A stretch of 63,938 nt of DNA, filler included, from Reclinomonas americana ATCC 50394 (lineage: Eukaryota): assembly GCA_048213135.1 (NCBI GenBank). It is 6 parts of 2 records of this genome, joined end to end, with 100 filler letters (N's around TTAATTAATTAA, not from the genome) between each part and the next. Parts side by side here need not be neighbours in the genome. Positions count along the whole stretch, not along the records: positions 5,763 to 32,309 come from PS015394.1; 5 more parts are not named here. One strand, given 5' to 3'. Positions 592 through 55,631 of the stretch are shown piece after piece; positions within the stretch are counted from its first letter, which is position 1, and each line of letters starts with the position of its first letter. Made by a program: the position numbers and the translations under genes. The notes under the pieces were generated by a model. That model was not told the origin of the DNA, ran no database searches, and saw only the letters and a program-made list of their open reading frames with translations.

Positions 592-1543
592 GCCAATGTC
601 GACATGTTTGCGCTCGGCTGCACAGGTACGGCAGCGATTCCTTCTGTCTGTGTGTGTGTACACTGCACATGTGACTGACTCTCGTCCTCACCAGACGGCA
701 CTGTTTGCGTGATTGGCGTGGCGGACTCGGATCGCTCTCGGATGTACTCCCTCGGGCAGTTGTCTCACGTGCGACCGGTCAGCGATCTGGTGTTTGCGCC
801 CGACGGAGCGTCGCTGCTGGTCGGCACGCGTGGTGGCACCGTGCATGTGTACACGGTGGACAGCGAGACCATGCAGTGGCATGCCAGTGTGGAGATGAGC
901 ACGAGTCTGCTCGGCTCGAGTGTCACCAGCATGTCGTGTGTGTGGCGGCAGCAGCAGCAGCAAATGGTGCTGGTGGCGATGCTGCCGCCGAGTGGATTCA
1001 TGGCCAGTTGGAAGAGGTCGCAGGAGGAGGGCACATGGACGGGTGCCGTGGAGAGTGTTGTGTTGGGCACGACGGTGTGCGCGTTGCATCCGGAGACACC
1101 CGTGCTGCTGACGGTCGCGGCGAGCGGCGATGTGTGTTGGTGGGCCAACGACGACCCGCAAGCACGCAGACCCCAGGAGCGCACCAAGACGGTTCGCGGG
1201 GTCAACCGGTGCGCGTGGAGTGCCGACGGCACGTACGTGGCGGTCGGTGGTGTCTCCGGCGAAGTGGTGATGTGGGTCGACTGGGCAGGTGAGTGAGTCC
1301 GGCTCTTGCGTGGCGAGCCAAGGCCCTGATGACCTTTGCACAGCCGCCCTGGTGGCGGAGATGAAGCGCGTGCAGTACGCGTTTGCCTTGTGCGAAGGCG
1401 GCGACGGCAGTCGGCTACCACTCGGTGCCGCCGTGCTGCATGTTGTGTTTGAGCACTGCCGGCTGCTGGTGAGCCAGGCAGAGCGCAGGAAAAAGGAGCG
1501 AGAAGAGGCGCGTGAAACAATCGACCTGACCGAGGACGACTAA
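592..1543 (+). CDS. Divergent WD40 beta-propeller protein, 3' part, 2 introns
   Basis: Blades VSDLVFAPDGASLLVGTRGGTVHVY and VNRCAWSADGTYVAVGGVSGEVVMW. GT-AG introns at ~626-693 and ~1289-1343. Ends ...RETIDLTEDD-TAA. Confidence 0.75.
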
Positions 1544-4087: not shown

Positions 4088-4959
4088 TCAGCCTACCATC
4101 GATCGCTTGCGCCCGCGACTCCTCACATCCTCCAGCTTGCGCTCGACGGCGCGCCGCGCCGCTGCCGACCTCGTCTGCTGCTCCAGCGACACAAAGTACG
4201 ACTCGAGCAGTGGCGCCAGCAGCTGATCGGCGTTGGGGTGTGTACTGGCAAAGGCGCGCTCCAGCACGTACAGATCGACGGCCTTGTCTTCGTCGGTGCC
4301 GGCCTGCACCGAGCTCAAGCCGAAATCCAGCAGCACCAGCGCATCCTCCACCCGCTCACAGTCGTCGCGCACCATCACGTTGGAGGTGGTCAGATCGCCG
4401 TGAATGAAACCGGCGGCATGCAGCGTGGCCAGCACGGTGCCGAGTTGCCGACACAGGGCCTCACAGCGTTCCCTCGCACCTACTGCCACCTCATCCTCCT
4501 CCTCTCCACTCGCGTCCAGCAGCGTGCGCTTGAGTGTGCGGCCGGGAATGCGTTCCATGACAAAGCGCAGAGTCTCGGCGTCGGCGAACAGCAGAGCCGG
4601 CGACTGCACTCCCAGCGAGCGGCATCGCACAAGGCCGCGACACTCCTGCGTCCCATGCATGCATGTGTGAGTGTGTGTGAGAGAGAGTGTGTGTGCGTGT
4701 GAGGGATGATGTGTGTGCGTACCGCTGCGAATCGCCGACTGTTGAGCTTGGCATCGAGATCAGGGTGGCGGTAGGCCTTCGCAAAGCGCTCCTTGACCAT
4801 GCAGGGCACACCGAAAAAGGTGCCCGAGTACAGACGCTGAGACACACACATGCATAGATGAATAACACACACACTTCTCCTCTCCGACTGTCATGGCAAC
4901 GCAACAGCCTCTGCGCCTTGCGCCACGAGTTCTAGTTGTGCCAGCTCGGCGGCACTCAT
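4088..4959 (-). CDS. TP53RK: Bud32/TP53RK (PRPK) atypical kinase, KEOPS subunit; 3 exons
   Basis: QGAEA|RLY, VKERFAKAYRHPDLD, IHGDLTTSNVM, LLDFGLS, EDKAVDLYVLERAF, C-terminal VRSRGRKRSMVG. Confidence 0.95.
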
Positions 4960-4989: not shown

Positions 4990-7116
4990 TCATTCGTCGG
5001 GCTTCCAATCGTCTCGCCAGTCGCCCTTCAGGTAGGAAACACTCCTCCGGCCACTGTCGACGACACACCCATCGCGTCGTCTTCCCTCCCGCGTTTCCCA
5101 GCTGATAAACTCGGCGTGCCGAGTCACCATGGCCTCCAGTACCAGCAGCGGGAGTGAATCGTGTAGGGGTGGGAAGCAGTCGGCAGCCGTCAAGGAACCG
5201 GAGCCTTCCAGCGAACTGTGCGTGCCTGGGCTTGGCGAAAAGATGTAGCTCGTGGTGTGGCCGAGTTGGGACGTTGCAGATGGCACAGGCGAGGGTGTGG
5301 TAATCACTGGCGACAGGAGGCCGGCGAGGCTCTCGCGGGCGCTGAGTGCCACACGGTCCGACCGGCGGCGGCGATTGCGTGGCGTCGTCGGAGCCGCCAG
5401 CTGCGCCCACATGCTCTCGTGCAGCTGCCGTACAATGTACGACACCACACGACCGGTGACGGCCTCCCGGTCGGCACACCACTCTGCAAAAGCAAAAAGA
5501 CGATCCTCAGTTGTCTTTGATCTACGGTCTTCCCCCTCCCCCCCGCCCCCCTGACCCCCGACACAAACATGGACTCACGTGTATCGTGGGCCTCGTACAG
5601 GCGAACCACGCCATTCTTCTGCGCCGCCGCAAAGACGAGGCCGTCGGGCGCGGCAACAACGGNNNNNNNNNNNNNNNNNNNNNNNNNNNNNNNNNNNNNN
5701 NNNNNNTTAATTAATTAANNNNNNNNNNNNNNNNNNNNNNNNNNNNNNNNNNNNNNNNNNNNACAGCAGCGGAGCACGGGCATCGGCAATAATCTGCAGA
5801 CACGACAGCGCGTCGTCGTGGCGCCACAAACGGACTGTGGAGTCGGTCGACGAACTCAGCAGCATGATGCCACCGGCCAGCCACGCCACAGCCGTCACGG
5901 AGCTGGTGTGATTTGCCGTGCTCTCGCGCCTGCTTTGCGTTTGAATGTCGATTACACCAATGCGCCACGAGGCCGAGCTGGCCACAGCCACCGTGCGGCC
6001 GTCGGGGCTCAGTGCACAGCACGAGCAAATGGCCGGCGCATTCCCATCGGCAACCAACTCTGGCTGCTGATCCCCCGTCACACCCTCGATGAATTCGGTG
6101 CTGTCATAGAAACGCCACACTTGATATCGCTGCGAGGTGGCCGACGCCGCAAAGAGCACACAGCCNNNNNNNNNNNNNNNNNNNNNNNNNNNNNNNNNNN
6201 NNNNNNNNNNNNNNNNNNNNNNNNNNNNNNNNNNNNNNNNNNNNNNNNNNNNNNNNNNNNNNNNNNNNNNNNNNNNNNNNNNNNNNNNNNNNNNNNNNNN
6301 NNNNNNNNNNNNNNNNNNNNNNNNNNNNNNNNNNNNNNNNNNNNNNNNNNNNNNNNNNNNNNNNNNNNNNNNNNNNNNNNNNNNNNNNNNNNNNNNNNNN
6401 NNNNNNNNNNNNNNNNNNNNNNNATCTTCCGATAGTGAGAGGATGTGAGCGATGCCCAGTGCTTGGCTGGTCGGCAGCACGTGCAGGTGACGCACGACCG
6501 ACACCAGACTGTCGTCGCTATCCGACAGGTCGTCGGCGTTGCGCAGCTCGTACACCTGAATGTCGGCCCATGGTGGAGCCGTCACGAGACGCACAGACGA
6601 CACCGCCACTGGCCACACACTGCTGGCCTCGGCCAGTGACGAGCTGCCGAGGTACTTGATGGGCGCTGTGCGATACAATCAGACCACATGCACAGTGGGG
6701 TCCGAGGCGCGCGCTCTCTCACCTCCGCCCTGGTTGAAACGCTGCACGCAGTCGCCCGTGCGCACATCGCTCAGCACCACCGAGCCGCACTTGCCGGTGG
6801 TGACCACGGTGGCACTGCGCGGACAAGGGGCGAGTGCACTCACCGGTCGTCTGTACTGCGGCGCAAACGAGAGCAGGCCGGTGGTGACACCAGGCAGTTG
6901 AGCATTCGCACTGGCCAGCATCACGTGCTCCTCTGGGGAGCACACCAGAGCGGCGGGCAGCTCGACAGCGTGCACCTGCCCGGTGCTCGTCCCCACGGCC
7001 AGCATGCGCGGTATTCCGCACGAGTTCAGCGGTGTCTCCACCAGCTGCAGGCATGTCACGTCTTGTGGTGCATCCACGGACAGCGTGATGGTCGCCAGTC
7101 GTCGCGCCGCGGCCAT
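4990..7116 (-). CDS. Divergent WD40 protein spanning two gaps
   Basis: Blades CALSPDGRTVAVASS and HTSSVTAVAWLAGGIMLLSSSTDSTVRLW. Frames join with zero missing bases across 6165-6423 (SLSED|GCVLF) and 5663-5762 (APLL-T|CC-VVAAPDG). Two short introns. Confidence 0.75.
5663..5762. other. Artificial scaffold linker N44-TTAATTAATTAA-N44
   Basis: Exactly 100 nt with stops in all six frames. The same linker occurs five times in the window. Confidence 0.97.
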
Positions 7117-7214: not shown

Positions 7215-10012
7215 CTATGCCGCGACTACGGGCGACAAAACTAATGGGTACGCGGCGCGCTTATCGGATTCGTCGATCTCGGGAGCGTGCCTTGTTGTTG
7301 TGTGATCCAGCTGCTCCTCCTGATTGTGGGTGGCGGACGAAGTCGACCACACGCCAATGCGCTCGCCAACCGTGCGCGAGAGGCGAATGCTGAACGATTC
7401 GCGCAGACGGACCAGGTGCGAGCCGGCCGTCACGCCCATCACCACGGCGTCGCCGGTGCCGTCCCACAGCTGATTGAGGGAGAGCCAGTCGGTGACTGAA
7501 GTGGTAAGCGGTCGGCGTGTCGGGCACCGTGCCTCGGCCACCGCGGACATGTTGTGCACCTCGAGCGCCGCCCATCGATCGGCGCGGCGTTCCGGATCCA
7601 CAAACGTGTATTCGCACAGCAATGCCAGCACCGTGCGCAGCATGGCAAACGAGTGGCATGGCGGCTGATCAAAAACAACGGTCAGCGTCTGTGGCGCGCG
7701 CGAAATGCCGCGCCACTGCTCGTCGCTGCAGCGCTGCACCAATGCCAACAAGTCCACCAGTGCGCCACTCTGTGAACACACACACACACACTCGTCGGTT
7801 ACCGGCGCATGCGACAAGCACCAACAGGCACAAGGACCGACCTTGGCCGCCTCCAGATACAGCTGTCGTGCGCGCTGTGGATTGTTGAGGAAGCAATTGA
7901 TGAGGGCGTGGTAGATGCGGCTGTCGGCCGTGATATCCTCGCGCTTCAACATCTCCTCGTAGATTCGCAGTGCCTGCAGATCACGAATGAGGGACAGTTT
8001 TGCGAAACGACCGAGAAAAAATACGCACGCAACTCCCGAGGTGTCGCCATTCCACACCAGCATGTTCATGCCGGCCCAGATAATGGTTCGAATGTGATCC
8101 GTCAGGTGCGCGTCGGCTGGCAGCAAGCGGTGCTGATTCGGTGGCGTGGAACCCGTGAGCCACGACAGAACGCGCGTGGAGCGCGACTGTGCGGGCGAGC
8201 GCGTGAATCGCATGCTGGCGCGTTTGAAAATGTGCATGCTGCGACTGGTCTCGCCGACGCGTGCACACGCATCCATCAGGCTTGCATAGGCCAACGCACT
8301 CGGTCGCTTCAACTGCAGGAAGGCCGCGAATGCGCCATTCAAGTGCAGTACAGCCCCACAGCCGAGAATTCGCGCCTGCACAAAACCATCCATTGTGTTA
8401 GCGCCACATGAGTGGGGGTGTGTGCATGTGCGCTGTGTACACGCACCACCACCAGCGATTCAGGAACATTGTGCACGCCGAGGCGTTGCTGGATGAGTTC
8501 CCACACCATGTCGAGGTGCGTGCGGTCTTGCAACTTGCGGCACGCATTGAGGGCGGCACGATACGGCGAGTCGTCAGCAGGTCGGCCCAGTGCATCGTGC
8601 ATCTGCACCCCGTCCCGTGTCAGGCAATGCGCTCTCTTCACGCGTTATACTTGTCACTCACCAGTCGCATGTATCCGATGATCTCACGGGGCTCCTTGGC
8701 GGCGTGACACGCCTTGATCATCGAGCCAAACGAGACGGTGTTGGGTTCGATCGCGTGTGCCGGCATCATCGTGTGGAACACGTACTTGGCGGCTGTTAGG
8801 TCGCCAGCCTCGGCACACACGTCGAGCAGCACGTTGAATGAGACCAGCTCGGGTGTAACACCAAAGTCCTTCATACCTACAAACGTGGCGAACGTGAGAT
8901 ACATTGCGTCGACGCCCGACAACAACAAGCACACACACACACCCTCCATGAGCTCCATGGCCTCCTTGACGCATCCGCCCTCTCGCAGTCCATTCAGTGC
9001 TTTGATGTGCAGATGCACGTCGAGCTGTACGCCGTCGGCTCGCGCCTCACGCAGCAACTGCGGTACGACGTCCGGTCGTCTGCACTCTCAACAGTCAGTC
9101 ACACCGGTCTCTCTCCTTCACACTCCGCCACACCCCGCAACTTGAGCTTCCGACACATCCAGAACAGCGACTTGTACGTGTATTCGCTCGGCGTGACCCG
9201 CTCCTGCCGCATCTTGCGCAACAGGGCCAGGGCGGTGGCCGGGTCTCGATCGCGATTCCACAGCGCGTCGAGCGCCATGTTGTACGAGGCCACATTTGGT
9301 GTGCAGCCGGCATCGCGCAACTCCCGAAACACCGCCAACACTCCGCTCCAGTTCCCCGACCGCAAATGGGCCGAGGCGGCTGCGTTGAACATGTACGTGG
9401 CGCGCCGCAGGTCCGGCAGCCGGCTGTCCACCTCACCACCATTCTGCGTCCTGCTCTCCGCCGTGCGCTCCATCACCAATCGATACACACTCAACACGTC
9501 GCCGTGTCGCCCCGCCGAGTTCAACCGGTTCATCAGCACGCCACACATCTCCGCAGACACTACCGTCAGCGACGAAGACGACGAGGCACCTGCAAGCGGA
9601 GAAGCGGCGATGAGTGCCCAAAAAGTGACATTCTCTTGCTTCTGTTCAACACTGCGCAACTCTGCCGACCGCTCAGCGCGGCCTTTAGCATCCCCAACGC
9701 GCGATCCACAGGCATGGACTCGACGTCCATCTGCGACGTCTCTTGCTGCTGTTGTGTGTGCGGCGGTTGCGAGCGGTGACGCAGTGATGGGAAGCGAGGC
9801 AACACTGATGATGATGGTGATGCAGGTGACGATGAAGGCGGAGATGATGAGCGGCGAAAGATGGAGGCGCTACTTGACTGCTGCGGTGGTTGTGATGACA
9901 ACTGTGACGAGGATGACATGGAGGAGGAGGAGCGAGCGAGTTGTGCTGATGCACTGCTCAGCCACTGCGGTCGCACGAGCAGTAGTCTTCTCCATGCAAC
10001 ACATGGCAGCAT
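7215..10012 (-). CDS. Pentatricopeptide-repeat (PPR) protein, probably mitochondrial; multi-exon
   Basis: 35-aa PPR motifs CTPNVASYNMALDALW, VTPSEYTYKSL, VTPELVSFNVLLDVCAEAGD, IEPNTVSFGSMIKAC, IYHALINCF. The N-terminus MLPCVAWRRLLLVRPQWLSSAS is R/S/L-rich and lacks acidic residues, like a targeting peptide. Confidence 0.88.
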
Positions 10013-10168: not shown

Positions 10169-10966
10169 TCACTCCGAGATCGTGCCTGGCGGGCCGAGCT
10201 TCGGCAAGTGCGTCATGACCGACTCGGCAATTCCCGTGCACTTGTCGACAATGCACTCGCGGAAATCGTGCGCGTGCGCCCCCACCACGTACTGCGTGAC
10301 AAAACTGTGCGATACAACACGACAAGGTGAGAGATTGAAATTGCGTTCGCCCCGAGAGTGAACGTGAAGACGACGACGACGCACCTGCACGGACGCACAC
10401 GCAGCGAGCCGTCGTTGCACGACCGAGAGAACTGCTCGCCGTCGGGCGACAGGCCGCGGGCGTTGACGAGAACTTCCTTGGCCTGTTGCCGACGCCCACT
10501 CTGCGCCTTCACGCGCCACCGCAGACAGGTGTTGTCGAGCGACCAGCTGACCACTGACTTGCCGTCGTCCACGGCCGTCAGCGCCAGCACCACATCGTCG
10601 TGATCGTGGAATACCGGGCGCACCAAGTCGCCAGTCACCGAACTCCACACGCGAGCGGTTCGATCGTCGGAGCCACTGGCCACTGTCACGCCGTCGGGGA
10701 AGAGCGCAACACAACGCACAGGGGCGGTGTGGCCGGAGAACTGCGAGATTTGGGCACGTGTCTCGAGGCACCACACACGCACGGTCGTATCGGCCGATCC
10801 ACTGACCACAAACCCACTGTAGCCGGTGAAAGCCACACAGGTGACGGCGTCGGTGTGGCCCACAAAGTGCGCAATCTGCTCACCCGTCGGCACCACCCAC
10901 ACCCGCACGGTGCGATCGGTCGACCCACTGGCCAACATCGGTGTGCACATGTCACTCTTCTCGGTG
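10169..10966 (-). CDS. NACHT-pentapeptide-WD40 gene, segment 5 (C-terminus)
   Basis: WD40 repeats such as GHTDAVTCVAFTGYSGFVVSGSADTTVRVW, one intron, end ...ECIVDKCTGIAESVMTHLPKLGPPGTISE*. Joins in frame to the end of 11056-12434. Confidence 0.85.
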
Positions 10967-11055
10967 NNNNNNNNNNNNNNNNNNNNNNNNNNNNNNNNNN
11001 NNNNNNNNNNNNNNNNNNNNNNNNNNNNNNNNNNNNNNNNNNNNNNNNNNNNNNN

Positions 11056-12434
11056 GCGCCATGCGGCGTCTGCTCGGTCGCCTTGTCCTCTGACGGAGCA
11101 CTGTTGGTAACTGGCATGGCTGAGCCGCACAAGGTCATTGTGTGGCGACGTGACACGTTTGAGATTGTTTGCCAGATGGAAGGGCACCGATCGGAGGTAT
11201 CCGGTGTGGCATTTGCGCTGAATGACTCAGTCGTTGTCAGTTGCAGTTACGACTACTCGGTCCGTGTTTGGAGTGGTGAAACTGGTGCGCAGTGCCTCTG
11301 CATTCGTGAACACACCGATTACGTTCGCGGCATGGCAGTGATGCGTGACGGCAAGACTGTGATCTCAGTTGGCGACGACTCGGTGATCCGGGTGTCGTCG
11401 GTCGAGGTCGGCAAGGAACTGCGAACCATCCCGATCGATGACGGATACCTGGAGGCCGTAGCAGTGTCGCCCGACGGCAGTCGATTCGTCGTCGGCGGTC
11501 GTTCGAAGACGGCCTGGGTGTTTGCATCCGACACGTTCGAAAAGCTGTTTACGCTGTCGGACCTGCACTCGGACTGGATCATGGCGCTGACATTTGTCGG
11601 CGACAACAAGCGTGTCATCAGCGCCTCTGACAATGGCGAGGTTCACATGTGGACGGTGAATGAGACAGCCTCCGGCGAGGATGTCATCAAGATCAACTGC
11701 AATCACGAAAGTCGAGGCCTTCGCCGACTGCACTACGACGCGAAGAAGCAGTACCTGGTGTCCGCTGGCAACAGCACACACGTCGTCATTACCGACATCT
11801 CCACCAACGACGAGGTCTCTCGATGCGAAGGCCACTCGGAGAGCGTCCGTGGCCTCTTTGTGATCGCCGACAACTCGTTCCAGCTGTTTTCGGCCAGCAC
11901 GGACGCCACCATTCGGGAGTGGTCGTTTGACCGTGGCAAGTTGACCGGTGTGCAAGAGCCGCAGGCTGGCCGGATCTTCCGTGCCGGCTTGTCTCCGGAC
12001 GGCGATCACGTTGTGGTGGTGGCCGGTCAGAAGTCTGTGTACGTGTGGTCGACGTTTACGGCGACCATGCACGAGTTGGTTGGCCTGGACGACTGGCCTC
12101 GCTGCGCCGCCGTGTCGCCCTACCGCTCACTCATCGCTTGTGGCGGTGACGACAAGACGGTGTGCGTGTGGCCGTGGCCGCCACCACCCGCACAGGACCG
12201 TGCGTACCGCCAGCTGCAGCACTCGGTTCGCCTGCGTGGTCACACGGACACAATTACTGCGGTGGCCTTCGCGCGCCACTCGCGCTGGCTAATGGCCAGT
12301 GGCTCGCGCGACAAGACGATTCGCCTGTGGCTACTGCCGCACACGCACACCAATGAGCTGATGCAAGACGAGGCACGACAAGTGCAGCAGCTGGACGGAC
12401 ATCGTGGCCACATCACCTCGCTCGATTTTTGCGG
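11056..12434 (+). CDS. NACHT-pentapeptide-WD40 gene, segment 4 (WD40 repeats; contig inverted)
   Basis: Uninterrupted ORF of ~10 WD40 repeats with no start or stop of its own. Confidence 0.85.
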
Positions 12435-12711
12435 NNNNNNNNNNNNNNNNNNNNNNNNNNNNNNNNNNNNNNNNNNNNNNNNNNNNNNNNNNNNNNNNNN
12501 NNNNNNNNNNNNNNNNNNNNNNNNNNNNNNNNNNNNNNNNNNNNNNNNNNNNNNNNNNNNNNNNNNNNNNNNNNNNNNNNNNNNNNNNNNNNNNNNNNNN
12601 NNNNNNNNNNNNNNNNNNNNNNNNNNNNNNNNNNNNNNNNNNNNNNNNNNNNNNNNNNNNNNNNNNNNNNNNNNNNNNNNNNNNNNNNNNNNNNNNNNNN
12701 NNNNNNNNNNN

Positions 12712-14497
12712 TGCTGTCGCCTTCTCGCCCGATGGCGAGTTCTTTGCCAGTGCCTCCGACGACCAAACGATGCGCGTGTGGTCGCGCGTCTCTGCCACCC
12801 AGTTGCAAGTTTTCGAGGGCCACACCGACGTCGTCACCTACGTTGCGTTTTCCGCCGACGGTCTGCTGCTGGCGACGGCGTCGATCGACTCCACCGTCCG
12901 TATCTGGTCACGTGAAACCGGCGGCTGCACCCGACTGTACAACTACGAGAACGATTCAGACAGATTTGTTCCGTTCGGGGTCACATTTTCTCCGTGTACA
13001 CGGCAGGTGGCATTCGGTGCACGCGATCATTGTGTGCGTGTGCTGCAAGTCGACGACATGTCCACGGATGAGCCAGTTATCAAATTCGAGGCGCCGACGT
13101 CGGCCGGCGATGCCATGTGCGTCGCGTATGAGCCAAACGGCGGCCGTTTGCTGGCCACTGGGTACGACGACTGCAAGATTCGGCTGTGGTCGCTGGACGA
13201 GTCGGCTACGGAACCTGTTCGCATGTTTGAAGGGCATACAGCGTACATTCGCGGCCTGGACTTTTCGCGAAACGGCACATTGCTCGTGTCGGGAAGCACG
13301 GATTCAACTGTCAGGTTGTGGAATGTGGCGACTGGCGAACAGCTGCACGTGTTTGAGGGACACACAGACGCCGTCACATCGGTCCGTCTCTCCTACGACA
13401 GCACCGTCATCATGTCGTCGTCGACCGATTCCACCGCGCGCATGTGGTCACGCGTCAAGGGCACCCTCCTGGAAGAGCTGCGCGGTCACAACCAACGTCT
13501 GTGGAGTGCGGACTTGTCTCCTGGCGGTAACAGTGTGGTGACAGCGTCGGCCGACAACTCACTCCGTGTGTGGTATCGCTCACCGATTCCGTATTCGAAT
13601 CGCGTCACTGGTCACCTGGATTGCATCACGTGTATCGCAGTTCCTGACGACATGTCGTTTTCAGTCAGTGGTGCAGCCGACGGCGCCGTTTTGGTGCATG
13701 ACTGTGCGTCTGCTCTCTTGAAAGCTGTTGCCACGGACCACAGGCAATCTGTGAACGGCGTTGCTGTGGTGCCCGACGGGCAGTGGTTCGTGAGTTGTTC
13801 TGATGACATGACGGTCCGGCGGTGGTTGCAGGACGGCACAGCGCGGGAGGTGCTGCGTGGACATGAAGCACCGGTGCTCTGCGTGGCTGTATCTCGCGAC
13901 GGCACCATGATTGCCAGTGGTTCGTGGGACAACACTGTTCATGTGTGGATGGTTGAGGTTGGTGAGGAGGAGGAGCCGCTCAAGTTCGTTCTCGACAGCC
14001 ATGATGCCGCTGTGTACGCTGTGGCATTCTCCTTTACCGGCGACTTGCTGGTGACCGGCTCTGCCGACCGCAGCGTTGGCGTGTGGGATACACAGTCCGG
14101 GCGACTGCTGCAGCGGTTCTGTGGTCACACGCAACGGGTTACAAGTGTGGCCATGACCGTAGATGCCGACCATGTGATCAGTGGCGCCCTTGACGATACG
14201 GTGCGTGTGTGGTGCTGCAGTTCACGCAGTCAGGTGCAGCAGTTCTCGGCTGCGCCGTCGGGCGGTGTGCACGCGCTGGCCCTGTGTGACGACGACAACA
14301 CCGTTGTAAGTGGCAGTGGTGACGGCGTTGTCCGGCTGTGGTCGCGCACCACCGGTGTACTCACGCAAGAGTTCACTGGCCACACACAGCCGGTGACCGC
14401 GGTCGCCACTCGATCCGGTCGCTTGATCTCGGTCTCTCGCGACAAGACCATGCGCTCGTCGATTCTGGTCTGCGGTCAGGAGACCAAGCAGATATCC
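12712..14497 (+). CDS. NACHT-pentapeptide-WD40 gene, segment 3 (WD40 repeats; contig inverted)
   Basis: Uninterrupted ORF of ~13 WD40 repeats (GH...W units). Confidence 0.85.
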
Positions 14498-14694
14498 NNN
14501 NNNNNNNNNNNNNNNNNNNNNNNNNNNNNNNNNNNNNNNNNNNNNNNNNNNNNNNNNNNNNNNNNNNNNNNNNNNNNNNNNNNNNNNNNNNNNNNNNNNN
14601 NNNNNNNNNNNNNNNNNNNNNNNNNNNNNNNNNNNNNNNNNNNNNNNNNNNNNNNNNNNNNNNNNNNNNNNNNNNNNNNNNNNNNNNNNNNNNN

Positions 14695-15503
14695 GGAGAC
14701 TGGGTTCGCGCTGTGGCGTACGCGCCTGACGGCTCCTTCTTTGCCAGTGCTTCCGATGACTCCACTGTGCGCCTGTGGAAGCGCGGAACGGCGGAGGCAT
14801 TCATGACTATTCAAGTTGGCGATGGCTACTGCTATTGTGTGAATATCTCTGCGGACAGCTCCATGGTTGTGGTCGGCAGTGGCGAGGGTACGGCGCGAGT
14901 GTATGCGGTTGCCGACGGCAGTCTGCTGCACTCACTGACGGGTTACAAGGACACTGTTCTCGGTGTGGCCTTCGCGCCCAGCATGTCGCACATTGCCTGT
15001 GTGACCAACGAGGGAAAAATTCGGCTGTGGGCGCTGCCGGCGAAGAAATCGACTACACGCGGCAACGTTATCGTCCTCAGCACACCGCGCCAGCTGAGAT
15101 GTGTTGCGTTTTCACACGACGGCAAGTATTTCGTTACTGGTGGCGAAGATGAGATTATTCGATTGTGGGAGACGGACAAGGTGCTCAACAAGAAGACGGA
15201 GCCGGAGTTTGAGTACACCGACCACAAGGGCAGCATCTATGCGCTCTCTTTCTCCCCCGACGGCACCATGATTGCCAGCGGAGGAGACGGCCAGGTGATT
15301 ATGCTGTGGTCGTGCACGGCATCGAAGCGTGAGTTTGTGAGAAACCTCGGTTCTCACGAAGGCACTGTGACGTCCGTGGCGTTTACTGCCGACGGTGGCT
15401 ATCTTGTTAGTGGCTCCGGAGACAATACTGTCCGCGTGTGGCCGTACGAGAAAAAGAGCGAGACTTCTGCTCTGCTCAACAACGGTCATCGCCGCGAGGT
15501 GAA
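14695..15503 (+). CDS. NACHT-pentapeptide-WD40 gene, segment 2 (WD40 repeats; contig inverted)
   Basis: Uninterrupted ORF of ~6 WD40 repeats. It begins GDWVRAVAYAPDG, continuing the GGH that ends at 16374. Confidence 0.85.
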
Positions 15504-16373
15504 NNNNNNNNNNNNNNNNNNNNNNNNNNNNNNNNNNNNNNNNNNNNNNNNNNNNNNNNNNNNNNNNNNNNNNNNNNNNNNNNNNNNNNNNNNNNNNNNN
15601 NNNNNNNNNNNNNNNNNNNNNNNNNNNNNNNNNNNNNNNNNNNNNNNNNNNNNNNNNNNNNNNNNNNNNNNNNNNNNNNNNNNNNNNNNNNNNNNNNNNN
15701 NNNNNNNNNNNNNNNNNNNNNNNNNNNNNNNNNNNNNNNNNNNNNNNNNNNNNNNNNNNNNNNNNNNNNNNNNNNNNNNNNNNNNNNNNNNNNNNNNNNN
15801 NNNNNNNNNNNNNNNNNNNNNNNNNNNNNNNNNNNNNNNNNNNNNNNNNNNNNNNNNNNNNNNNNNNNNNNNNNNNNNNNNNNNNNNNNNNNNNNNNNNN
15901 NNNNNNNNNNNNNNNNNNNNNNNNNNNNNNNNNNNNNNNNNNNNNNNNNNNNNNNNNNNNNNNNNNNNNNNNNNNNNNNNNNNNNNNNNNNNNNNNNNNN
16001 NNNNNNNNNNNNNNNNNNNNNNNNNNNNNNNNNNNNNNNNNNNNNNNNNNNNNNNNNNNNNNNNNNNNNNNNNNNNNNNNNNNNNNNNNNNNNNNNNNNN
16101 NNNNNNNNNNNNNNNNNNNNNNNNNNNNNNNNNNNNNNNNNNNNNNNNNNNNNNNNNNNNNNNNNNNNNNNNNNNNNNNNNNNNNNNNNNNNNNNNNNNN
16201 NNNNNNNNNNNNNNNNNNNNNNNNNNNNNNNNNNNNNNNNNNNNNNNNNNNNNNNNNNNNNNNNNNNNNNNNNNNNNNNNNNNNNNNNNNNNNNNNNNNN
16301 NNNNNNNNNNNNNNNNNNNNNNNNNNNNNNNNNNNNNNNNNNNNNNNNNNNNNNNNNNNNNNNNNNNNNNNNN

Positions 16374-19300
16374 ATGACCGCCGTAACAGCACTCCTCGCG
16401 GCCCGAATCGCGCCACCACAGCCTCACCGTACGGTCGTTACTGCCACTGACAATCAGCTTTCCATCGGGTGACAAGTCGACGCCGGCTACGGTGCCTTCA
16501 TGGCCCGTCAATGGAAACAGTGGCAAGCGTGCATCCAGGAGATCGGCACCGGTGAAGTCCGCATTGGCGCACATGGCGGCACGGAGATTCGTCCTCGATA
16601 AGTCCGCTCGGTGCAACAAAGTTCTGTGCATGACTGCGTAGCGCAGATCGGCACCGCTCACAGCAATGTCGCTCAGGTCCAAGGCCGAAAAGCTGCGTCC
16701 AGCAGCCGACAGCACTGCGAACAAAAACACGTTTGAGTGAGAAACAGTGGGCGCACGCTGGTGAAAGAATGACATGGCAGCGCCACACCGGTCATTGCAT
16801 TGGCACTGGCCGTGCCAAGGAGCGCTCGGCGTGTGGGATCGCGGGTGGCCAACACCACACTCTGCAAGTCACGCGCAAACTGCGATTCATGACCCGTCCT
16901 GGTGTCCCACACCCAGTTGGAGAGGAACATCAGCACGGCAATCTGCGAACGAGTTAAATCGCCTGTCAGAGCAATCGGCAGAGCAAGACTGAGAGCACAC
17001 ACCTCTTCGTCAATCAGCCGTGTTCCAAACATGGTGGTGCTGAGCTGGCGGTCAAAGATCTCCGCCTCGGACTGCAAAGAGAGAACCGTGCGCAGTGTCA
17101 GCGATAGAGCGGCGGCTGTGAAGGGTGGCGCGTGCGCACCGTTGAGACAGTCTGTTCCCTCGAGGCAAATGACACGTTGCTGAAATAGAGATGCCCGCCG
17201 ACGTTATGGCTCCAGTCGGCCACCTCTCGCTGGCAGCGCAAGGCCGCAAAGTATTCCAAGAACGACTTGTGGAAGAAGCGATAGCCACCCTCACGCAGGG
17301 ACCGCAGCAGCGCCTGCACCGCGGGTGAACACCATGAAAAATCGAAACTCTCGCAACGTGGGCGAAATACACGCACCGACTGCCGCAGCACGGTTTCGCG
17401 CTCATCACGCGGTCGACCAAAGTAGGTAATCCACACGGCGTGTGCGCCGAGCATCGCACGACACTGCGTTTTGGTCGCTGGGTCGGTGCTCGACGCCAGA
17501 ATGTTGGCCAGCTCGGTGAGACGGTGTTGTGGCTGTTGGGTGTTGAGGTGTCAGCTCCCCTGCAGCTGAGCAAGAGATCAACGTCGCACTCACCAATCGC
17601 TGAATATCCTGTGCAGGGATCAAGAGCAAATCGTGCGCCATGGACGCACAAAATTCCTCCATCTCCAACAAGACATCCTCGTCGGAGGCAAAAGCCTGCG
17701 TGTGGTGGACGGTGGTGAGCTCTTTGTGTACACGACGCGTCACCGGCATCAAACAAACGCACACTGGCGATTTTCTCGGCGTGATGCTTCTGCTCCCACT
17801 CAAACCACCACTCTGTGAATGCCTGGTACACATCCGCACGAGAGACGGTGCCGCAGATGACTCCCGACTGGCGCTTGTGGAGTTTCGGAAGCACGCGCAC
17901 AATCATACTGAGAGTAATGGGCTGCGACATTGCCAGTCAGTCGTTACAGACTCTCTCTCTCTTTCTCTCTCTCACACACACACGATGCGTACTCACCGTG
18001 CGAGAGAGTTCGTCCAGACCCGGAATCGACTTGATGACGTCCTTGTAATTGATTTTTGCGGCAGAAGTGTCTGCGGCTTGCTGCATTCGCGAAAATCTGC
18101 CACATTGCACGTCGTGAGCGGTGTGTACGAGACAGACCAGTCGATATCACGGCAAACGAAACTGATCGAGGAATGTGTCGACTTGGTCCGCCGTGAACTC
18201 GCGCAGTACGCACTGATCATAGGTGCTGTCGGAGGCGGTAGACTGCTCGTCGTTGGCGAACATGTCGGCGCGGGACAGCTCGCCGACTGACACGCTGAAG
18301 AGTTCTTCGCAGCGACTGCCGAGCTCGTGAATGTACTCGAGGCGGCACGATATCACCAGCGCCAGGTTCGGCCATTGCTCCAGCTGGTGTCGCCTGAACA
18401 GGTTGAGTGGCGTCTTCAGTTCGTCAAATCCGTCCATGATGAGCACGAATCGCCAGCCCCGTTCGTCGACCAGCTTGGCCTGGTATGCGCATGCACATGT
18501 GAGGTCCACGACACAAACGGAAGAGACTATCAACGTGCCTCGTCAATGGAAATGCCACCGGCGCGACGCAGCAAGTACGGCATCAGCGCTCCCTCCTTCT
18601 CCAACACGTTCGATGGGATGGCCGGCAGTCGTGAGAATAGCGGCACCATAAAGTCGTGTTTCAGCCAAATCTGCTCCTCCATGTTGCGCACAAATGTGCT
18701 CTTGCCAGAACCCGAGCGACCAATGACCAGCAGCACCTACCTCACGCGCAGAGAAAGTGAGCGCACTGCAACGTGTTCCACTGTGACATGAACACGGTTA
18801 ACCTGACGGCGCGGATAAGCGGTGAGGAACTGAAGGAGGCGATCTTCGGCCGCCACTGCCGCGCCGAGACCCTCTTGCGACTCGTACTCCTTGATGCTGT
18901 TGTTCGATCGCAACGGGATCTGTATATACCGGCCACTTGGTGAGAGGTGCACAGAAGAAAAGAGAGGGAGAGAACCACTACCACTCAACCGTGTTTTGCG
19001 AAATCAGTCGCGTCAACTCATCGTCCGAGTCGCGCTCCTGCTGGATCTTCTCCAGCGCACACTTTTTGACAAACGCCAGCTTATTCTGCAACGCCACCGG
19101 CAGTCGCTGCACGCGGAAGCCGGCACCCACCGGGTCATTGGCGATAGCCAAGAACGTGCCACCGCCTCCCGCCGTCTGCGGCCGCACACCAGGCGTCGCC
19201 ACCGAAAAGTCCATCATGGCCACACCCGGAGAAGGCGTGACAGCAAAGCTCTCTTCATCACCGACGCCCTCCACTTGCGGCGTACGGTTGCCTGCACCGC

Positions 19301-19622
19301 CGTCCAAGCTCATGAGATCATCCACAAAGGCCGTGCGTGGTCGTCGCAGCAGCTGCACATTGTCGTTGTTGGCGTGCATCTCGTGGCCAGTGGGTGTTGC
19401 GGTTGTCACGAGAATGGCGGCGGTCGCTGCCGCCAAGTGACGGTGCGCGCCGCTCTTTGCGGTACCAGTGTTGGTGGTGGTGGTGGTGGTGGTGGTGGAG
19501 AAGGTGGCAGCAGCAGCAGCAGCTGCTGATGCGGGGGGTGTGGTCACAGGATGCACAGAGGCGCTGCGAGAGGAGCCCGAGCCGCCTCCGCGCACACGCA
19601 CTCGCATGCGCACACCAGACAT
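16374..19622 (-). CDS. NACHT (STAND NTPase)-pentapeptide-WD40 gene, segment 1; about 10 short introns
   Basis: Walker A VLLVIGRSGSGKST, Walker B FVLIMDGFDE, sensor LVISCRLEY, IPGLDELSRT|PITLSMI, winged-helix YRFFHKSFLEYFAA, ASANAMT followed by pentapeptide repeats (ADLRY, ADLSR, ADFTG, ADLLD), then the first WD40. The start codon is inferred. Confidence 0.88.
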
Positions 19623-19775
19623 GATGGGGAGACACAAAAAAGACACAAAGAGAGAAAAGATGTGTGTGTGCGCGTCGGTGATGCAGGAAAAGTGCGCGGG
19701 TAAAATTTGATGACATGTGCGTTATATTGCTGCGCTAGCCGTTGAGCAAAACAATGACCTTTATTTAATCCCTCT

Positions 19776-22700
19776 TCACCTTGCTCTCCGCGCTGGTGAC
19801 GACCCGGAGCTGCTACTTGACGAGGAGGAAGAGGAGGAGGAGGAGCTGTCGTCGCAGTGGTGGTCGCCGGGGGCGGCGGTGAGGGAGATGAGCAGGTTTT
19901 GGTTTTCGACTTGCAAGACAGTGGATGTGGTGCGCGGAATAATCTGTGTCGGAGTTGAGTGATGATGCATGGTGCGTGCGTGCGTGCGTGCGTGTGCCCA
20001 AGTAGACGCACCTCGTGCACCCAGTACGAAATGGAGCGCGGAGACCAGCAGGTGAGTGGCTTCCTTCGGTCCTCCGGCGACGACTCGTCGAGCTCCGTGA
20101 AGACCTCGGCAATGGCCCCGTCGGGACCGCGAACAAAATGCCGGAACAGCTCCTTCTCGCCCGTCTGCAGCCGCATGGTGAAGATGAGGATGTGGAATGC
20201 CGTGTGCAGAACCGGTGGCGTCGGAGTGCCGCCGTCGGCCTTGACTTGCGGCAGCGACATGCTGTAGCGCTCGTTGTTCGGCTGGAACAAGCGGTCCAAA
20301 TGCATGTACAGGCCGTTGAGAGTGCTGGCCAGGTCCTTGTAGTTGACTGGCGCCGCACAGCAGCCGCAGCTGCTGCTGCTTTGCTCTTCCGTGAGCACCT
20401 GGCCGATTGGCAACCCATCAAGTCGCACAAACTGGTACTGCTTCAGCATGGCGACAAGCTGCTGTACACGCTCCGCCTTGCCGCTGACGTCCCAGAACAG
20501 AGAGTCGGCCAGCAACTGGCCGTCGCGGACCTCGAATACACCCTCAAACAGTTCCTCTGCGCACCGCCACCAGACATGAGGAAGATGGCACAGAAGACGT
20601 GAGAGCGGGGCAGACACCGACAACGCACCATCATTGTCCATGCGCATCAGTGATTCGTCAACGTCGGCGTACTGCACACGCAACAAGAGAGTGGATGGCT
20701 TGAGTAAAGAGACTAAAAAAAAAAGAGAGAGTCGCAGCAAGGTCCACACCTTCTCCACCATCATGCCACGCTGTCGCAGCTCGCCGAGACTGAGCCACAC
20801 GGCCGGTTTGTACATCATCATGTCGTCGGCATACTCGAAGAGTTCCATGTCGCCCACGTTGCCAAAGCCGGCAGCGAGAACGCCGGCAGCGCCACCGGCA
20901 TCGCCGCCATTGGCCGACGACTGCAGGGCACCGAGTCGCGCACGCTGCAAGTACTGCTCAAAGCGCGACACTCCCGCCGGCAAATCATCCATCACAGGCT
21001 CCTCCACCCGCACACCAGTGAGCTTGTTGCCAGGCGTCTGGCGACGTGACGGCGAGCTCAGACGTGACACGGCACCGGCGGCATGATCTGCCACCATGTC
21101 TGTCACCGTAACAGGACCAGCCGGACCAATGTCCATTTCGTCTGTGTGCGCGCGTGTGTAATGTGAGCAGAGTGCGCACTCGAGGCCACGACGCCCAACC
21201 TCACGCAACTCGCTCGCATCATGCCAATGGCACCACCGCGACCACTCTTCGCGCCATGCTTGACGCTGCTGAGAGCCGCCTCGTCATCATCGTCATCGTC
21301 GTCGCCGTCGTCGTCAAAGAGCTTGCTGCGCGCGGCCTTGCCACCAGCGACCGCATTTACAGTCCGAGTGACCGCAAAGCGACTCTTGGCACGCGGATTG
21401 TTCACCACGCTCTTGCGCTGGCGCCAATCGACGTCACCCGGGCTGCTTGTGCGCGAGGCGGGACTCGAGTTCTTGTCGGCCGAGCCGCCCATGCCGTCGA
21501 TCACCGACGGATGCACCGTCGAAACGGCCGGCAGCCGCGCAGCATGCTCGTCCTCGGCAGTTGCCTGCTCAACCACATCACCCACAGTCGGTGCCTGCTG
21601 TGCACATACAGGTCAGCACTGCAAACGCATCTCCAACACGAGTACACAAACACACAAACACAGCTGGGTTGCGAACCGTCTGCTGTGGCATCGAGCCGCG
21701 GCGATGTCCATCTCGTGGCACCAGGAACTGGAACGGATCAAACGGCACGCGCAGTTCACGGTTGCGCAGGCGCTTCTCACTGACATGCTCAAAGTACATC
21801 AGGAGCACTTGACGGACATCCTCCTGCGTCAGCATGGAGTGGAACTGTGGCGGCGAGGTGCACGGTTAATAAAAATGAAGCACTCCACACGACCCACTCC
21901 ACTCCTGGCTGGCGTCTCACCTCGGCATGCACAAAGGTCTTGATCGACCGACCATGCGCCTTCACATCGTCGTTGAGCTCCAACGACTGCAGCGGCAAGT
22001 CTCGTGTGTAGCCGTATGGCCAACTCGAGCTGAGCAGCGTGAACAGGCGGTCCAAGAACGGCGCAATGTCGGGCTCGGCGTAGCGCCACACAGTCACCTG
22101 CACGCGTAGCAAGCAAGTCACTTTCTTCAGTGACTACCAGCACACTACTGGAATAGAGCAAGCAAGCACACTCCACCTTGCGCATGGCGGCATCCTCGCC
22201 ACGCCAGGTCTCCGCCTTGGCAATGAGGCCCTCCAGCTCCGACTGCGACACCTCCAGGTCGTCGGGCATGTAGAACAGGCCCTCCTCGCCGTGTAGCCGA
22301 GTGTACACATCCATGACACGGCCATTCATGTGGAAAGTGAGTGCATACTGGGGGAGAGGAATCAGTGAATGGTTGGTTGTGGAGTAGAACAAGAATAATG
22401 CGCATTGACCAACCTGATATAATACAAGGAAACTCGCAAACATGACCACGGCGTCAAGGAAGACGGCTAGCAGCACGCCAATGATGCCGTTGCCCTCGTT
22501 GGTCTGATAGTAGTTGTACAGGCGGAAGAAGTCTCCGGAGTAGTTGCCCGTGACGGCATCGATGGCGACTTGGAACAGAGGATCCAACAGACAGGCTGCG
22601 CCACGAGCGTGAGTGAGCAACGCCCAGACCATGGTGATGGAGGGGCAACCGAGCGGTTACGCAACACACGCCGAGAGCAAACAGGCAGCGCGACAAAAAG

Positions 22701-51479: not shown

Positions 51480-51579
51480 NNNNNNNNNNNNNNNNNNNNN
51501 NNNNNNNNNNNNNNNNNNNNNNNTTAATTAATTAANNNNNNNNNNNNNNNNNNNNNNNNNNNNNNNNNNNNNNNNNNNN
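51480..51579. other. Artificial scaffold linker
   Basis: N44-TTAATTAATTAA-N44. Confidence 0.97.
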
Positions 51580-55531: not shown

Positions 55532-55631
55532 NNNNNNNNNNNNNNNNNNNNNNNNNNNNNNNNNNNNNNNNNNNNTTAATTAATTAANNNNNNNNNNNNN
55601 NNNNNNNNNNNNNNNNNNNNNNNNNNNNNNN
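55532..55631. other. Artificial scaffold linker
   Basis: N44-TTAATTAATTAA-N44, interrupting an ankyrin repeat right after GWTPL. Confidence 0.97.

What the first reader, a model, noticed from the sequence alone, without database searches (positions are those of the whole stretch)
10169..19622. Giant NLR-like NACHT-pentapeptide-WD40 protein (~2,400 aa, ~35 WD40 repeats) hidden by assembly flips
Seen: after re-orientation, one ORF runs from a low-complexity N-terminus through NACHT, winged helix and pentapeptide repeats into about 1,550 aa of WD40, enough for roughly five 7-bladed propellers. Known, from memory: the YI...LL.G.SG.GKST / AANA.T.L..AG..F...DL layout matches NACHT-pentapeptide-WD40 proteins of Mortierellaceae fungi, their Mycoavidus endosymbionts and ciliates, a patchy distribution. 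No recognisable N-terminal effector domain is present. Inference: an intracellular surveillance receptor, possibly of horizontal ancestry.
Basis: partly seen in the sequence, partly recalled or inferred. Interest (0 to 1): 0.7.

Follow-up and report, generated by a model that had tools for sequence, protein, structure and literature searches.

The report
Spliced NACHT-pentapeptide-WD40 receptor gene, scaffold-scrambled
This is a real, intron-containing eukaryotic gene for an NLR-like switch protein (NACHT ATPase, pentapeptide linker, WD40 propellers) of a family already described in Mortierella-type fungi and their Mycoavidus symbionts; its record-size WD40 array depends on a contig orientation that could not be checked.

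Summary
The minus-strand N-terminal half (19622-16374) looks broken but is not. Its frame changes are 8 short introns (7 GT-AG, 1 GC-AG), plus one probable 1-base assembly error. Spliced, it gives a low-complexity N-terminus, a NACHT NTPase, a winged-helix/helical region, pentapeptide repeats and the first WD40 blade.

It aligns at 27-29% identity over about 340 residues with NACHT-pentapeptide-WD40 proteins of Mortierella, Modicella and Mycoavidus. In trees it falls in their clade, on a long branch.

I count 35 WD40 units on five gap-bounded pieces. Three pieces (11056-15503) lie on the plus strand, between the two minus-strand ends of the gene. One start, one stop, and open frames at every gap edge make a wrongly oriented scaffold block the simplest reading. 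No read, transcript or ortholog confirms it.

Relatives carry 12-15 units, so the giant array is about even odds.

The receptor function is inferred from the architecture. Horizontal origin is neither shown nor excluded. This is a new, divergent member of a published family, of moderate interest.

The parts
18982..19622 (-). Exon 1: ATG at 19620-19622 and about 213 aa of low-complexity Ala/Thr/Gly-rich N-terminus. Homologs start to align only at about residue 188.
   Evidence: Three-frame read. No Pfam, NCBIfam, PADLOC or Atlas match.
18803..18935 (-). Exon 2: pre-NACHT segment. It lies between intron 1 (18981-18936, 46 nt, or 49 nt with another donor) and intron 2 (18802-18737, 66 nt, in frame, holds a TAG).
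   Evidence: Junction enumeration; three-frame read.
18539..18736 (-). Exon 3: NACHT start with Walker A GRSGSGKST (18721-18695). It is followed by a 59-nt GC-AG intron (18538-18480).
   Evidence: Pfam NACHT profile positions 3-30, 16.4 bits. 40-49% identity over 43 aa to P0054, P0064, P0084 and P0111. The GC-AG model scores better than the alternative against all 5 homologs tested.
18151..18479 (-). Exon 4: NACHT core with Walker B FVLIMDGFDE (18449-18420). It is followed by intron 4 (18150-18097, 54 nt, in-frame TGA).
   Evidence: Pfam NACHT profile positions 80-155, 16.9 bits; tblastn alignment to P0064; Atlas NACHT clusters at 0.85-0.89, a lead only.
17997..18096 (-). Exon 5. It is followed by intron 5 (17996-17922, 75 nt, GTGAGT...CAG), which holds a (TG)n(GA)n microsatellite and an in-frame stop.
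   Evidence: The P0064 alignment has a 25-residue gap exactly over this intron; junction enumeration.
17594..17921 (-). Exon 6: end of the NACHT and start of the helical region. There is one frame break near 17690, in a 4-base homopolymer run.
   Evidence: An independent read-contig (run X1) lacks one base at 17690. Homolog alignments run on in the same frame to about 17724. A model with X at the break scores better than a 43-nt intron.
17176..17532 (-). Exon 7: winged-helix region with YRFFHKSFLEYFAA (17283-17242). It is preceded by intron 17593-17533 (61 nt, GTGAGT).
   Evidence: No Pfam family matched this piece alone.
16789..17071 (-). Exon 8: helical spacer ending in ...ASANAMT. It is flanked by intron 17175-17072 (104 nt; shorter alternatives exist) and intron 16788-16715 (74 nt).
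   Evidence: The model aligns collinearly with P0064 over residues 190-790 (model A row).
16374..16714 (-). Exon 9: pentapeptide repeats (about 16712-16545) and WD40 unit 1, plus the 'GH' of unit 2. It runs open into the gap.
   Evidence: Pfam Pentapeptide 37.3 bits and WD40 41.3 bits; NCBIfam pentapeptide families; P0064 pentapeptide region aligned.
15504..16373 (.). 870-N scaffold gap between the minus-strand front half and the plus-strand block.
11056..12434 (+). WD40 contig p1: 459 codons without a stop and 10 units detected (an 11th, degenerate unit is likely). It is open at both gap edges.
12713..14497 (+). WD40 contig p2: 595 codons without a stop and 14 units. It folds as two propellers.
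   Evidence: AlphaFold2 mean pLDDT 87.6, with one low-confidence break at residues 291-298. Best PDB match is 2ymu_A, a 14-repeat double propeller, E 2.4e-45.
14695..15503 (+). WD40 contig p3: 269 codons without a stop and 6 units. It is open at both gap edges.
10169..10965 (-). C-terminal piece: 4 WD40 units plus one degenerate unit, then the tail. The stop is at 10213-10215 if unspliced, or at 10169-10171 after a candidate 80-nt intron (10384-10305).

Best explanation
This is one nuclear, intron-containing gene for an NLR-like STAND NTPase of the NACHT-pentapeptide-WD40 clade.

Shown:
- The minus-strand half (19622-16374) is intact once 8 short introns are removed and one 1-base assembly error is allowed for.
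- It encodes NACHT with complete Walker A and B motifs, a winged-helix/helical region, a short pentapeptide beta-helix and WD40 blades.
- Its nearest relatives are the Mortierellomycota and Mycoavidus proteins.

Inferred, at about even odds:
- The three plus-strand WD40 contigs (11056-15503) are the middle of this same gene, placed in the wrong orientation as one block by the scaffolder.
- The protein would then read N-terminus, NACHT, pentapeptide, p1, p2, p3, C-terminal piece. It would carry at least 35 WD40 units, that is five or more seven-bladed propellers, and at least 2,476 aa.

Inferred by analogy with Apaf-1 and other STAND proteins (recalled knowledge):
- The WD40 propellers hold the NACHT in a closed, ADP-bound state until a ligand binds.
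- Nucleotide exchange then allows oligomerisation.
- The N-termini, here without a recognisable effector domain, are brought together to signal, or they recruit a separate effector.
For: Gene integrity:
- Every frame change has a GT-AG or GC-AG intron of 46-104 nt in the right phase.
- Three introns are multiples of 3 and hold in-frame stops, so frameshift errors cannot explain them.
- Gaps in the P0064 alignment coincide with introns 4 and 5.
- The one break without a clean intron sits in a 4-base homopolymer run, where an independent contig has one base fewer.

Family:
- The spliced model aligns over about 335-357 residues at 27.5-28.6% identity to 5 of 5 tested homologs, with E from 2.5e-31 to 5.6e-28 in a small local database.
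- Of those homologs, P0064, P0084 and P0111 list PF05729 among their precomputed Pfam families. Their clade-mate P0125 scores 72.9 bits on Pfam NACHT.
- The window protein sits in the Mycoavidus/Mortierellomycota clade at 100/99 support. It is sister to the Mortierellomycota group at 87/82.
- Pentapeptide and WD40 pass the Pfam cut-offs.

One gene:
- The five WD40-bearing pieces hold exactly one start and one stop, and each is open at its gap edges.
- There is no stop in the 1,323 codons of the plus block.
- There is no second NACHT in the window.
- As assembled, the block sits between the two halves of a minus-strand gene, in a genome whose introns here are at most 104 nt.
- GC3 is uniform across all pieces, 0.67-0.79.
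Against: - Of 15 clade members checked, 13 have WD40 and all 13 have 12-15 units. An array of 35 or more units would therefore be an outlier.
- The orientation conflict proves the scaffold is wrong at least once, so contig membership is also in doubt.
- By my reading, all eight contig ends fall in the same third of the WD40 unit. Repeat phase at the junctions therefore cannot tell true neighbours from false ones.
- No contig-end overlaps were found.
- The window protein sits on a very long branch (2.4-2.9 changes per site), and the tool flags its placement as unsure.
- NACHT does not reach Pfam's cut-off on any single exon: 16.4 and 16.9 bits against 26.7.
- No evidence of function exists for any member of this clade. 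The paper read calls their role an open question.
Confidence: 0.55

Rival explanations
1. The gene is real but of ordinary size. The minus-strand front (NACHT, pentapeptide, unit 1) and the minus-strand tail (units plus stop) are one gene with about 14 WD40 units, of which about 9 are hidden in a gap. The plus-strand contigs p1-p3 come from one or more paralogous WD40 genes and were inserted here by mis-scaffolding.
For: - 13 of the 13 clade members that have WD40 carry 12-15 units.
- Each of p1, p2 and p3 alone holds at most 14 units.
- The window holds other WD40 genes, at 679-1293 and 62784-63938.
- The scaffold is demonstrably inconsistent here.
- Contig ends cluster in the conserved part of the repeat, which suggests repeat-induced assembly breaks (my reading).
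Against: - DNA-level similarity between repeats is almost absent: one 76-nt match at 75% in the region. Repeat-driven misplacement is therefore not obviously expected.
- p1-p3 together show no start, no stop, no NACHT and no tail.
- Three contigs would have to be misplaced together.
Confidence: 0.3
2. The inversion is real in the genome. A 4.4-kb middle segment of a giant gene was flipped, leaving a disrupted gene (a recent pseudogene).
For: The sequence as deposited shows exactly this arrangement.
Against: - All pieces keep long open frames, 1,323 codons in the block, so any inversion would have to be recent.
- Both breakpoints coincide with assembly gaps, which points to an assembly cause.
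- No read evidence exists either way.
Confidence: 0.07
3. The NACHT half is a decayed pseudogene with frameshifts, not a spliced gene.
For: As raw ORFs the region is cut into at least 9 pieces in three frames.
Against: - Each break has a phase-correct GT-AG or GC-AG intron.
- In-frame stop-bearing segments coincide with gaps in homolog alignments.
- No stop lies inside any exon.
- The single unexplained break matches a homopolymer length difference in an independent contig.
Confidence: 0.04

Closest known systems
NACHT-PPR-WD40 NOD-like receptors of Mortierellomycota and Mycoavidus cysteinexigens (PMC11291939, passages read; examples P0111 Mortierella sp. GBA43, P0121 Modicella reniformis, P0125 Mycoavidus)
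   Same: The order of modules is the same: NACHT, helical region, pentapeptide, then the WD40 array. The NACHT falls in this clade. The alignment is collinear from the pre-NACHT segment to the pentapeptide repeats.
   Different: - Identity in the NACHT is only 27-29%, on a long branch.
- The gene has 8-9 spliceosomal introns.
- The N-terminus is low-complexity, not the long N-terminal regions of P0111 and P0123 (ARM-like in P0123) nor the 50-60 aa N-termini of P0064, P0054 and P0084.
- 35 WD40 units are visible, against 12-15 in the family, if the contigs belong together.
Fungal HET-E / NWD-type NACHT-WD40 proteins (recalled; the examples in the hit list are Mycena, Gymnopilus and Russula proteins)
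   Same: They share NACHT followed by a WD40 array, and the presumed role in non-self or danger sensing.
   Different: - The Dikarya NACHT-WD40 hits barely match, or do not match, the clade profile built around the window's NACHT. Of P0002, P0007, P0012 and P0115, only P0115 appears, at 10.2 bits.
- They have no pentapeptide module.
- The repeats here are not homogenised. Mean unit identity is 21-38% within pieces, against 52% in the neighbouring WD40 gene at 62784-63938. There is almost no DNA-level repeat similarity.
Apaf-1 (mechanistic analogue; structures 3sfz, 3shf and 3j2t appear among the fold matches)
   Same: It is a STAND NTPase with a C-terminal tandem WD40 propeller sensor. The p2 model matches its propellers at E about 1e-29 to 1e-30.
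   Different: Apaf-1 has an NB-ARC NTPase, not a NACHT, and a CARD effector. It has 15 blades in two propellers (recalled) and no pentapeptide module.
2ymu, 'highly repetitive propeller structure' (best fold match)
   Same: It has 14 WD40 units forming two seven-bladed propellers, with 33% identity and E 2.4e-45 to the p2 model.
   Different: It is a stand-alone repeat fragment. Nothing links it to this NACHT clade.

Membership tests
NACHT NTPase (Pfam PF05729, STAND class) | Walker A, G-x4-G-K-[ST] (pattern recalled) | tested here: met
   GRSGSGKST at 18721-18695. It aligns to the P-loop of P0064.
NACHT NTPase (Pfam PF05729, STAND class) | Walker B, hhhhDG-x-DE (pattern recalled) | tested here: met
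   FVLIMDGFDE at 18449-18420. It aligns to ILICDGYDE of P0064.
NACHT NTPase (Pfam PF05729, STAND class) | Score at or above Pfam's gathering cut-off of 26.7 bits | tested here: inconclusive
   The domain is split by introns. Exon 3 scores 16.4 bits (profile 3-30) and exon 4 scores 16.9 bits (profile 80-155), in collinear order. The spliced protein could not be handed to the Pfam tool. Clade relatives do pass: P0125 72.9 bits and P0123 38.5 bits.
NACHT NTPase (Pfam PF05729, STAND class) | Significant full-domain alignment to proteins that pass the family threshold | tested here: met
   The model aligns over about 335-357 residues to 5 of 5 homologs at E from 2.5e-31 to 5.6e-28 in a local database. 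An iterated profile search recovers the clade.
NACHT-pentapeptide-WD40 clade (Mortierellomycota / Mycoavidus type) | NACHT groups with clade members in a tree | tested here: met
   Clade support is 100/99. The window protein is sister to the Mortierellomycota rows at 87/82. Its branch length is 2.4-2.9, and the tool warns that the placement is unsure.
NACHT-pentapeptide-WD40 clade (Mortierellomycota / Mycoavidus type) | Pentapeptide repeats between the NOD module and the WD40 array | tested here: met
   PF00805 scores 37.3 bits against a cut-off of 20.2, directly upstream of WD40 unit 1 in the same exon. It aligns to the pentapeptide stretch of P0064.
NACHT-pentapeptide-WD40 clade (Mortierellomycota / Mycoavidus type) | WD40 array of about 14 units (two propellers) | tested here: inconclusive
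   35 units lie on five pieces, against 12-15 in 13 of 13 members with WD40. The count for this gene depends on unverified contig membership.
HET-E/NWD-type fungal NACHT-WD40 with highly conserved, diversifying repeats | High identity between repeat units (feature recalled) | tested here: not met
   Mean unit identity within pieces is 0.21-0.38. The only DNA repeat match in the region is a single 76-nt match at 75%.

The most novel reading that the evidence does not exclude
All five WD40 pieces belong to one transcript. This NLR-like protein then carries at least 35 blades, and about 47-49 if the scaffold's gap sizes are right, which is five to seven propellers. As far as I recall, that would be the largest sensor array on any STAND NTPase, and 2.5 to 3.5 times the norm of its own family. 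It also sits in a eukaryote whose copy is intron-rich and sister to the fungal copies. The NACHT-pentapeptide-WD40 family would then be older and wider in eukaryotes than the published recent exchange between Mycoavidus and Mortierellomycota.
Probability: 0.4. Interest if true: 0.6.

Novelty: new member of a known kind. Interest (0 to 1): 0.4.

Why it matters
NLR-like STAND receptors are the common hardware of innate immunity and cell-death control in animals, plants, fungi and bacteria. In the papers I found, the NACHT-pentapeptide-WD40 type is discussed only as something shared between Mortierellomycota and their Mycoavidus endosymbionts (PMC11291939, passages read; searches).

This copy is divergent, intron-rich and fully at home in its genome, in an unidentified eukaryote. 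It adds a data point to where the family lives and how old it is in eukaryotes.

If the 35-plus-blade array is real, it raises a concrete question. What does a receptor do with five or more propellers: bind many ligands, or build a scaffold?

If it is not real, the locus is a useful warning. Repeat-rich receptor genes are scrambled in draft scaffolds and can be missed or inflated by annotation.

Tried and rejected
- Whole-genome search was not possible, because no genome is held for this window.
- Word-based homolog search with the Walker B exon, 'longer' setting: none of 213 candidates scored.
- Full HMMER search with exon 4 alone: only 10 hits at E up to 1e-3, the best 9e-6. There are therefore no close orthologs in that library.
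- Sequencing runs: three small DNA runs of one sample, and no RNA holder listed. Only 4 short contigs were laid on the 10 kb. None was near a gap, so they say nothing about orientation.
- Contig-end overlaps in all orientations: none of 6 nt or more.
- Exact 29-nt look-up of the contig end in metagenome contigs: 0 matches.
- Register of the WD40 pieces against homolog arrays: the best alignments are ambiguous. p1 starts at the array start in 4 of 5 closely related homologs; m2 is best at the array end in 2 of 5. I rejected this as evidence.
- Repeat phase at the junctions fits the block flip. But all contig ends lie in the same part of the unit, so I rejected this as discriminating (my reading).
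- GC and GC3 are the same for all pieces and neighbours, so they are not informative.
- Unit-to-unit identity shows no grouping by piece.
- Upstream 530-aa ORF (19547-21136) as a hidden N-terminal effector: no similarity to homolog N-termini, no Pfam family and no homolog found. It remains unresolved.
- Identifying the organism from neighbouring genes gave no usable hits. I did not pursue this further.
- A kinetoplastid origin and a frameshifted pseudogene were early ideas. I dropped both once the introns were seen.

Full report
**What the sequence is.**
The window is a gapped draft scaffold with 25 N runs. Four of them cut the finding, at 10967-11055, 12435-12711, 14498-14694 and 15504-16373. 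No whole genome is held for it. Five 100-nt spacers of the form N44-TTAATTAATTAA-N44 show that it is a concatenation of scaffolds joined with six-frame-stop linkers. The finding lies inside one such segment, 5763-32309.

**The minus-strand half is spliced, not broken.**
Raw ORF lists cut 19622-16374 into at least nine pieces in three frames. A three-frame read and an enumeration of phase-correct introns give a candidate at every break:
- 18981-18936 (46 nt)
- 18802-18737 (66 nt)
- 18538-18480 (59 nt, GC-AG)
- 18150-18097 (54 nt)
- 17996-17922 (75 nt, GTGAGT, with a (TG)n(GA)n microsatellite)
- 17593-17533 (61 nt, GTGAGT)
- 17175-17072 (104 nt; shorter alternatives exist)
- 16788-16715 (74 nt)

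Three of these are multiples of three and carry in-frame stops, so indel errors cannot explain them.

In the tblastn alignment of the homolog P0064, the long gaps fall over the stop-bearing segments of introns 4 and 5.

The remaining break, near 17690, lies in a 4-base homopolymer run. The only independent contig that covers it (run X1, depth 3.6) has one base fewer there. Homolog alignments continue in the upstream frame to about 17724.

A model with the GC-AG intron and an X at that break scores better than the alternative model against all five homologs tested: 111-122 bits against 102-113.

A pseudogene reading is therefore rejected.

**Domains.**
Pfam on the unspliced pieces gives:
- Pentapeptide (PF00805): 37.3 bits, cut-off 20.2.
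- WD40: E of 1.8e-10, 4e-48, 6.3e-111, 9.1e-49 and 3e-28 on the five WD pieces.
- NACHT (PF05729): only weak, collinear hits on two exons, at 16.4 bits (profile 3-30) and 16.9 bits (profile 80-155). Each is below the 26.7 cut-off because the domain is split by introns.

The motifs GRSGSGKST, FVLIMDGFDE and YRFFHKSFLEYFAA are read directly from the sequence. That they are the NACHT hallmarks is recalled knowledge.

The first 213 residues match nothing in Pfam, NCBIfam or PADLOC, and gave no usable hit in the ESM Atlas.

**Relatives.**
- A word-based search with the Walker B exon found nothing.
- A full HMMER scan of 1.84 billion representatives with the 110-aa exon 4 found only 10 proteins at E up to 1e-3, the best at 9e-6.
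- A search with the pentapeptide-plus-first-WD40 exon returned 406 proteins at E up to 1e-5, of which 120 were listed. At least 11 of those list both PF05729 and PF00805.
- Of 18 such proteins run back against the window, 4 hit the NACHT exons (P0054, P0064, P0084, P0111).
- Names from the cluster look-up and the hit list: P0121 is Modicella reniformis, P0125 is Mycoavidus cysteinexigens, and P0111 is Mortierella sp. GBA43. P0054, P0064 and P0084 are unnamed metagenome proteins.
- The spliced model aligns to these over about 335-357 residues at 27.5-28.6% identity. With P0064 it aligns collinearly from the pre-NACHT segment to the pentapeptide repeats.
- P0125 passes Pfam NACHT at 72.9 bits and also carries pentapeptide repeats.

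**Trees.**
- In a first tree of 18 NACHT domains, the window protein falls in a 100/99-supported clade with Mycoavidus, the Mortierellomycota proteins and P0124. This clade is separate from one that holds a Blastocatellia protein and metagenome proteins.
- In a second tree of 26 rows, with bacterial copies added from a genome scan, it is sister to the Mortierellomycota and metagenome group at 87/82. The surrounding set, of Mycoavidus, gammaproteobacterial MAGs, Francisellaceae and Schekmanbacteria, is poorly resolved.
- Its branch is long (2.4-2.9), and the tool warns that such placements are unsure.

**Bacterial distribution.**
The genome scan used a single Walker B pattern of the Mycoavidus type. 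It found 56 loci, 35 of them in Mycoavidus MAGs. It cannot give the family's full range.

**What is in print.**
[quoted passage not shown] PMC9815663 (passages read) notes NLR N-terminal domains shared by Mortierellomycetes and Mycoavidus. I found no paper that places this architecture in another eukaryote. Supplements were not read.

**The WD40 array and the orientation problem.**
A repeat profile built from the window finds 35 units:

| Piece | Coordinates | Strand | Units |
|---|---|---|---|
| Exon 9 | 16374-16714 | minus | 1, plus the start of a second |
| p1 | 11056-12434 | plus | 10 |
| p2 | 12713-14497 | plus | 14 |
| p3 | 14695-15503 | plus | 6 |
| C-terminal piece | 10216-10965 | minus | 4 |

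p2 folds with mean pLDDT 87.6 into two beta-sheet bodies, separated by a low-confidence stretch at residues 291-298. Its best solved match is a 14-repeat double propeller, 2ymu, at E 2.4e-45.

All five pieces run open into their gaps, and together they hold one start and one stop. The plus block has 1,323 codons without a stop. No second NACHT exists in the window.

As assembled, the plus block sits between the two halves of a minus-strand gene.

Several points count against it:
- 13 of the 13 clade members that have WD40 carry 12-15 units.
- The scaffold is certainly wrong somewhere here.

I could not obtain a direct test. Reads were too sparse, contig ends do not overlap, and a metagenome look-up was empty. 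Register against homolog arrays, repeat phase, composition and unit similarity were all uninformative (see Tried and rejected).

I put the single giant gene at about 0.55. The ordinary-size gene with misplaced contigs is at about 0.3. A true genomic inversion is below 0.1.

**Ends of the gene.**
- The start is the ATG at 19620-19622, preceded by a pyrimidine-rich, CA-repeat stretch.
- An orphan 530-aa ORF upstream (19547-21136) overlaps the start in another frame. It has no homolog or domain. Whether it is a separate gene or a hidden N-terminal exon is open.
- At the 3' end, either the frame runs to a stop at 10213-10215, or an 80-nt GTGCGT...CAG intron (10384-10305) leads to a last exon that stops at 10169-10171.

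**Mechanism.**
Nothing here tests function. By analogy with Apaf-1 and other STAND proteins (recalled), the likely working is as follows.
1. The WD40 propellers sense a ligand and relieve autoinhibition of the NACHT.
2. Nucleotide exchange drives oligomerisation.
3. The clustered N-termini signal.

The N-terminus here has no recognisable effector, so signalling may need a partner or a short motif. The repeats are not of the homogenised, fast-diversifying kind seen in some fungal NACHT-WD40 genes: unit identity is 21-38%, and there is almost no DNA-level repeat similarity.

**Horizontal origin.**
The gene has 8-9 spliceosomal introns and the GC3 of its neighbours, so it is not a contaminant or a recent arrival. 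The trees cannot polarise a transfer. The moderate sister relation to the fungal copies (87/82) fits either an old eukaryotic presence or an artefact of the long branch.

**Verdict.**
This is a real, well-supported NLR-like gene and a new, divergent member of a published family. The giant size is plausible but unproven. Interest is moderate, at 0.4. It would be higher if a long read or a cDNA shows the 35-plus-blade array to be one protein.

Noticed in passing
window 5663-5762, 32310-32409, 51480-51579, 55532-55631, 62473-62572: Five identical 100-nt spacers of the form N44-TTAATTAATTAA-N44, which carry a stop in all six frames. These are contig or scaffold linkers, so the window is a concatenation of at least six pieces whose order and orientation may be arbitrary.
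   Followed up: partly
window 62784-63938 (-): A second WD40 gene runs off the window end. It has 7 very regular units with 52% mean identity to each other, much more homogenised than the units of the finding. Its N-terminal part lies outside the window.
   Followed up: partly
window 34842-60232 (-): A long run of ankyrin-repeat ORF pieces lies on the minus strand across several gaps and linkers, with a protein-kinase fragment at 57331-57741. It could be one or several very large ankyrin genes.
   Followed up: no
window 8641-9869 (-): A pentatricopeptide-repeat (PPR) gene lies directly downstream of the finding, on the same strand. A possible start lies within about 100-150 nt of the finding's stop, which points to a compact genome.
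   Followed up: no
window 19547-21136 (-): A 530-aa ORF lies just upstream and overlaps the finding's start codon in another frame. It has no Pfam family, no homolog found, and no likeness to the N-termini of the NLR relatives. Its tail looks like read-through of low-complexity DNA.
   Followed up: partly
window 17690: An independent contig of run X1 (depth 3.6) has one base fewer in a 4-base homopolymer run. This fits homopolymer-length errors in this assembly.
   Followed up: yes
window 2376-2448 (-): tRNA-Thr (anticodon TGT). It is the only Rfam or ARAGORN hit in the window.
   Followed up: no
window 679-1293 (+), 2688-3293 (-), 4091-4759 (-), 5824-6015 (-): Fragments of a WD40 protein, a class I/II aminotransferase, a protein kinase and another short WD40-like stretch. 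All appear as exon-sized pieces, as expected for an intron-bearing genome.
   Followed up: no
P0121 (Modicella reniformis, 2574 aa) and P0125 (Mycoavidus, 1158 aa): P0121 carries two NACHT modules (567-899 and 2196-2533) around one 14-unit WD40 array. P0125 carries NACHT, pentapeptide, then a second NACHT, with no WD40. These are either tandem genes fused by the gene caller or true double modules.
   Followed up: partly
L001-L038 (genome contigs): 35 of the 56 loci found with one Walker B pattern are in Mycoavidus cysteinexigens MAGs, several per genome. The family is therefore strongly expanded in this endosymbiont. One gammaproteobacterial MAG has three copies within about 20 kb.
   Followed up: no
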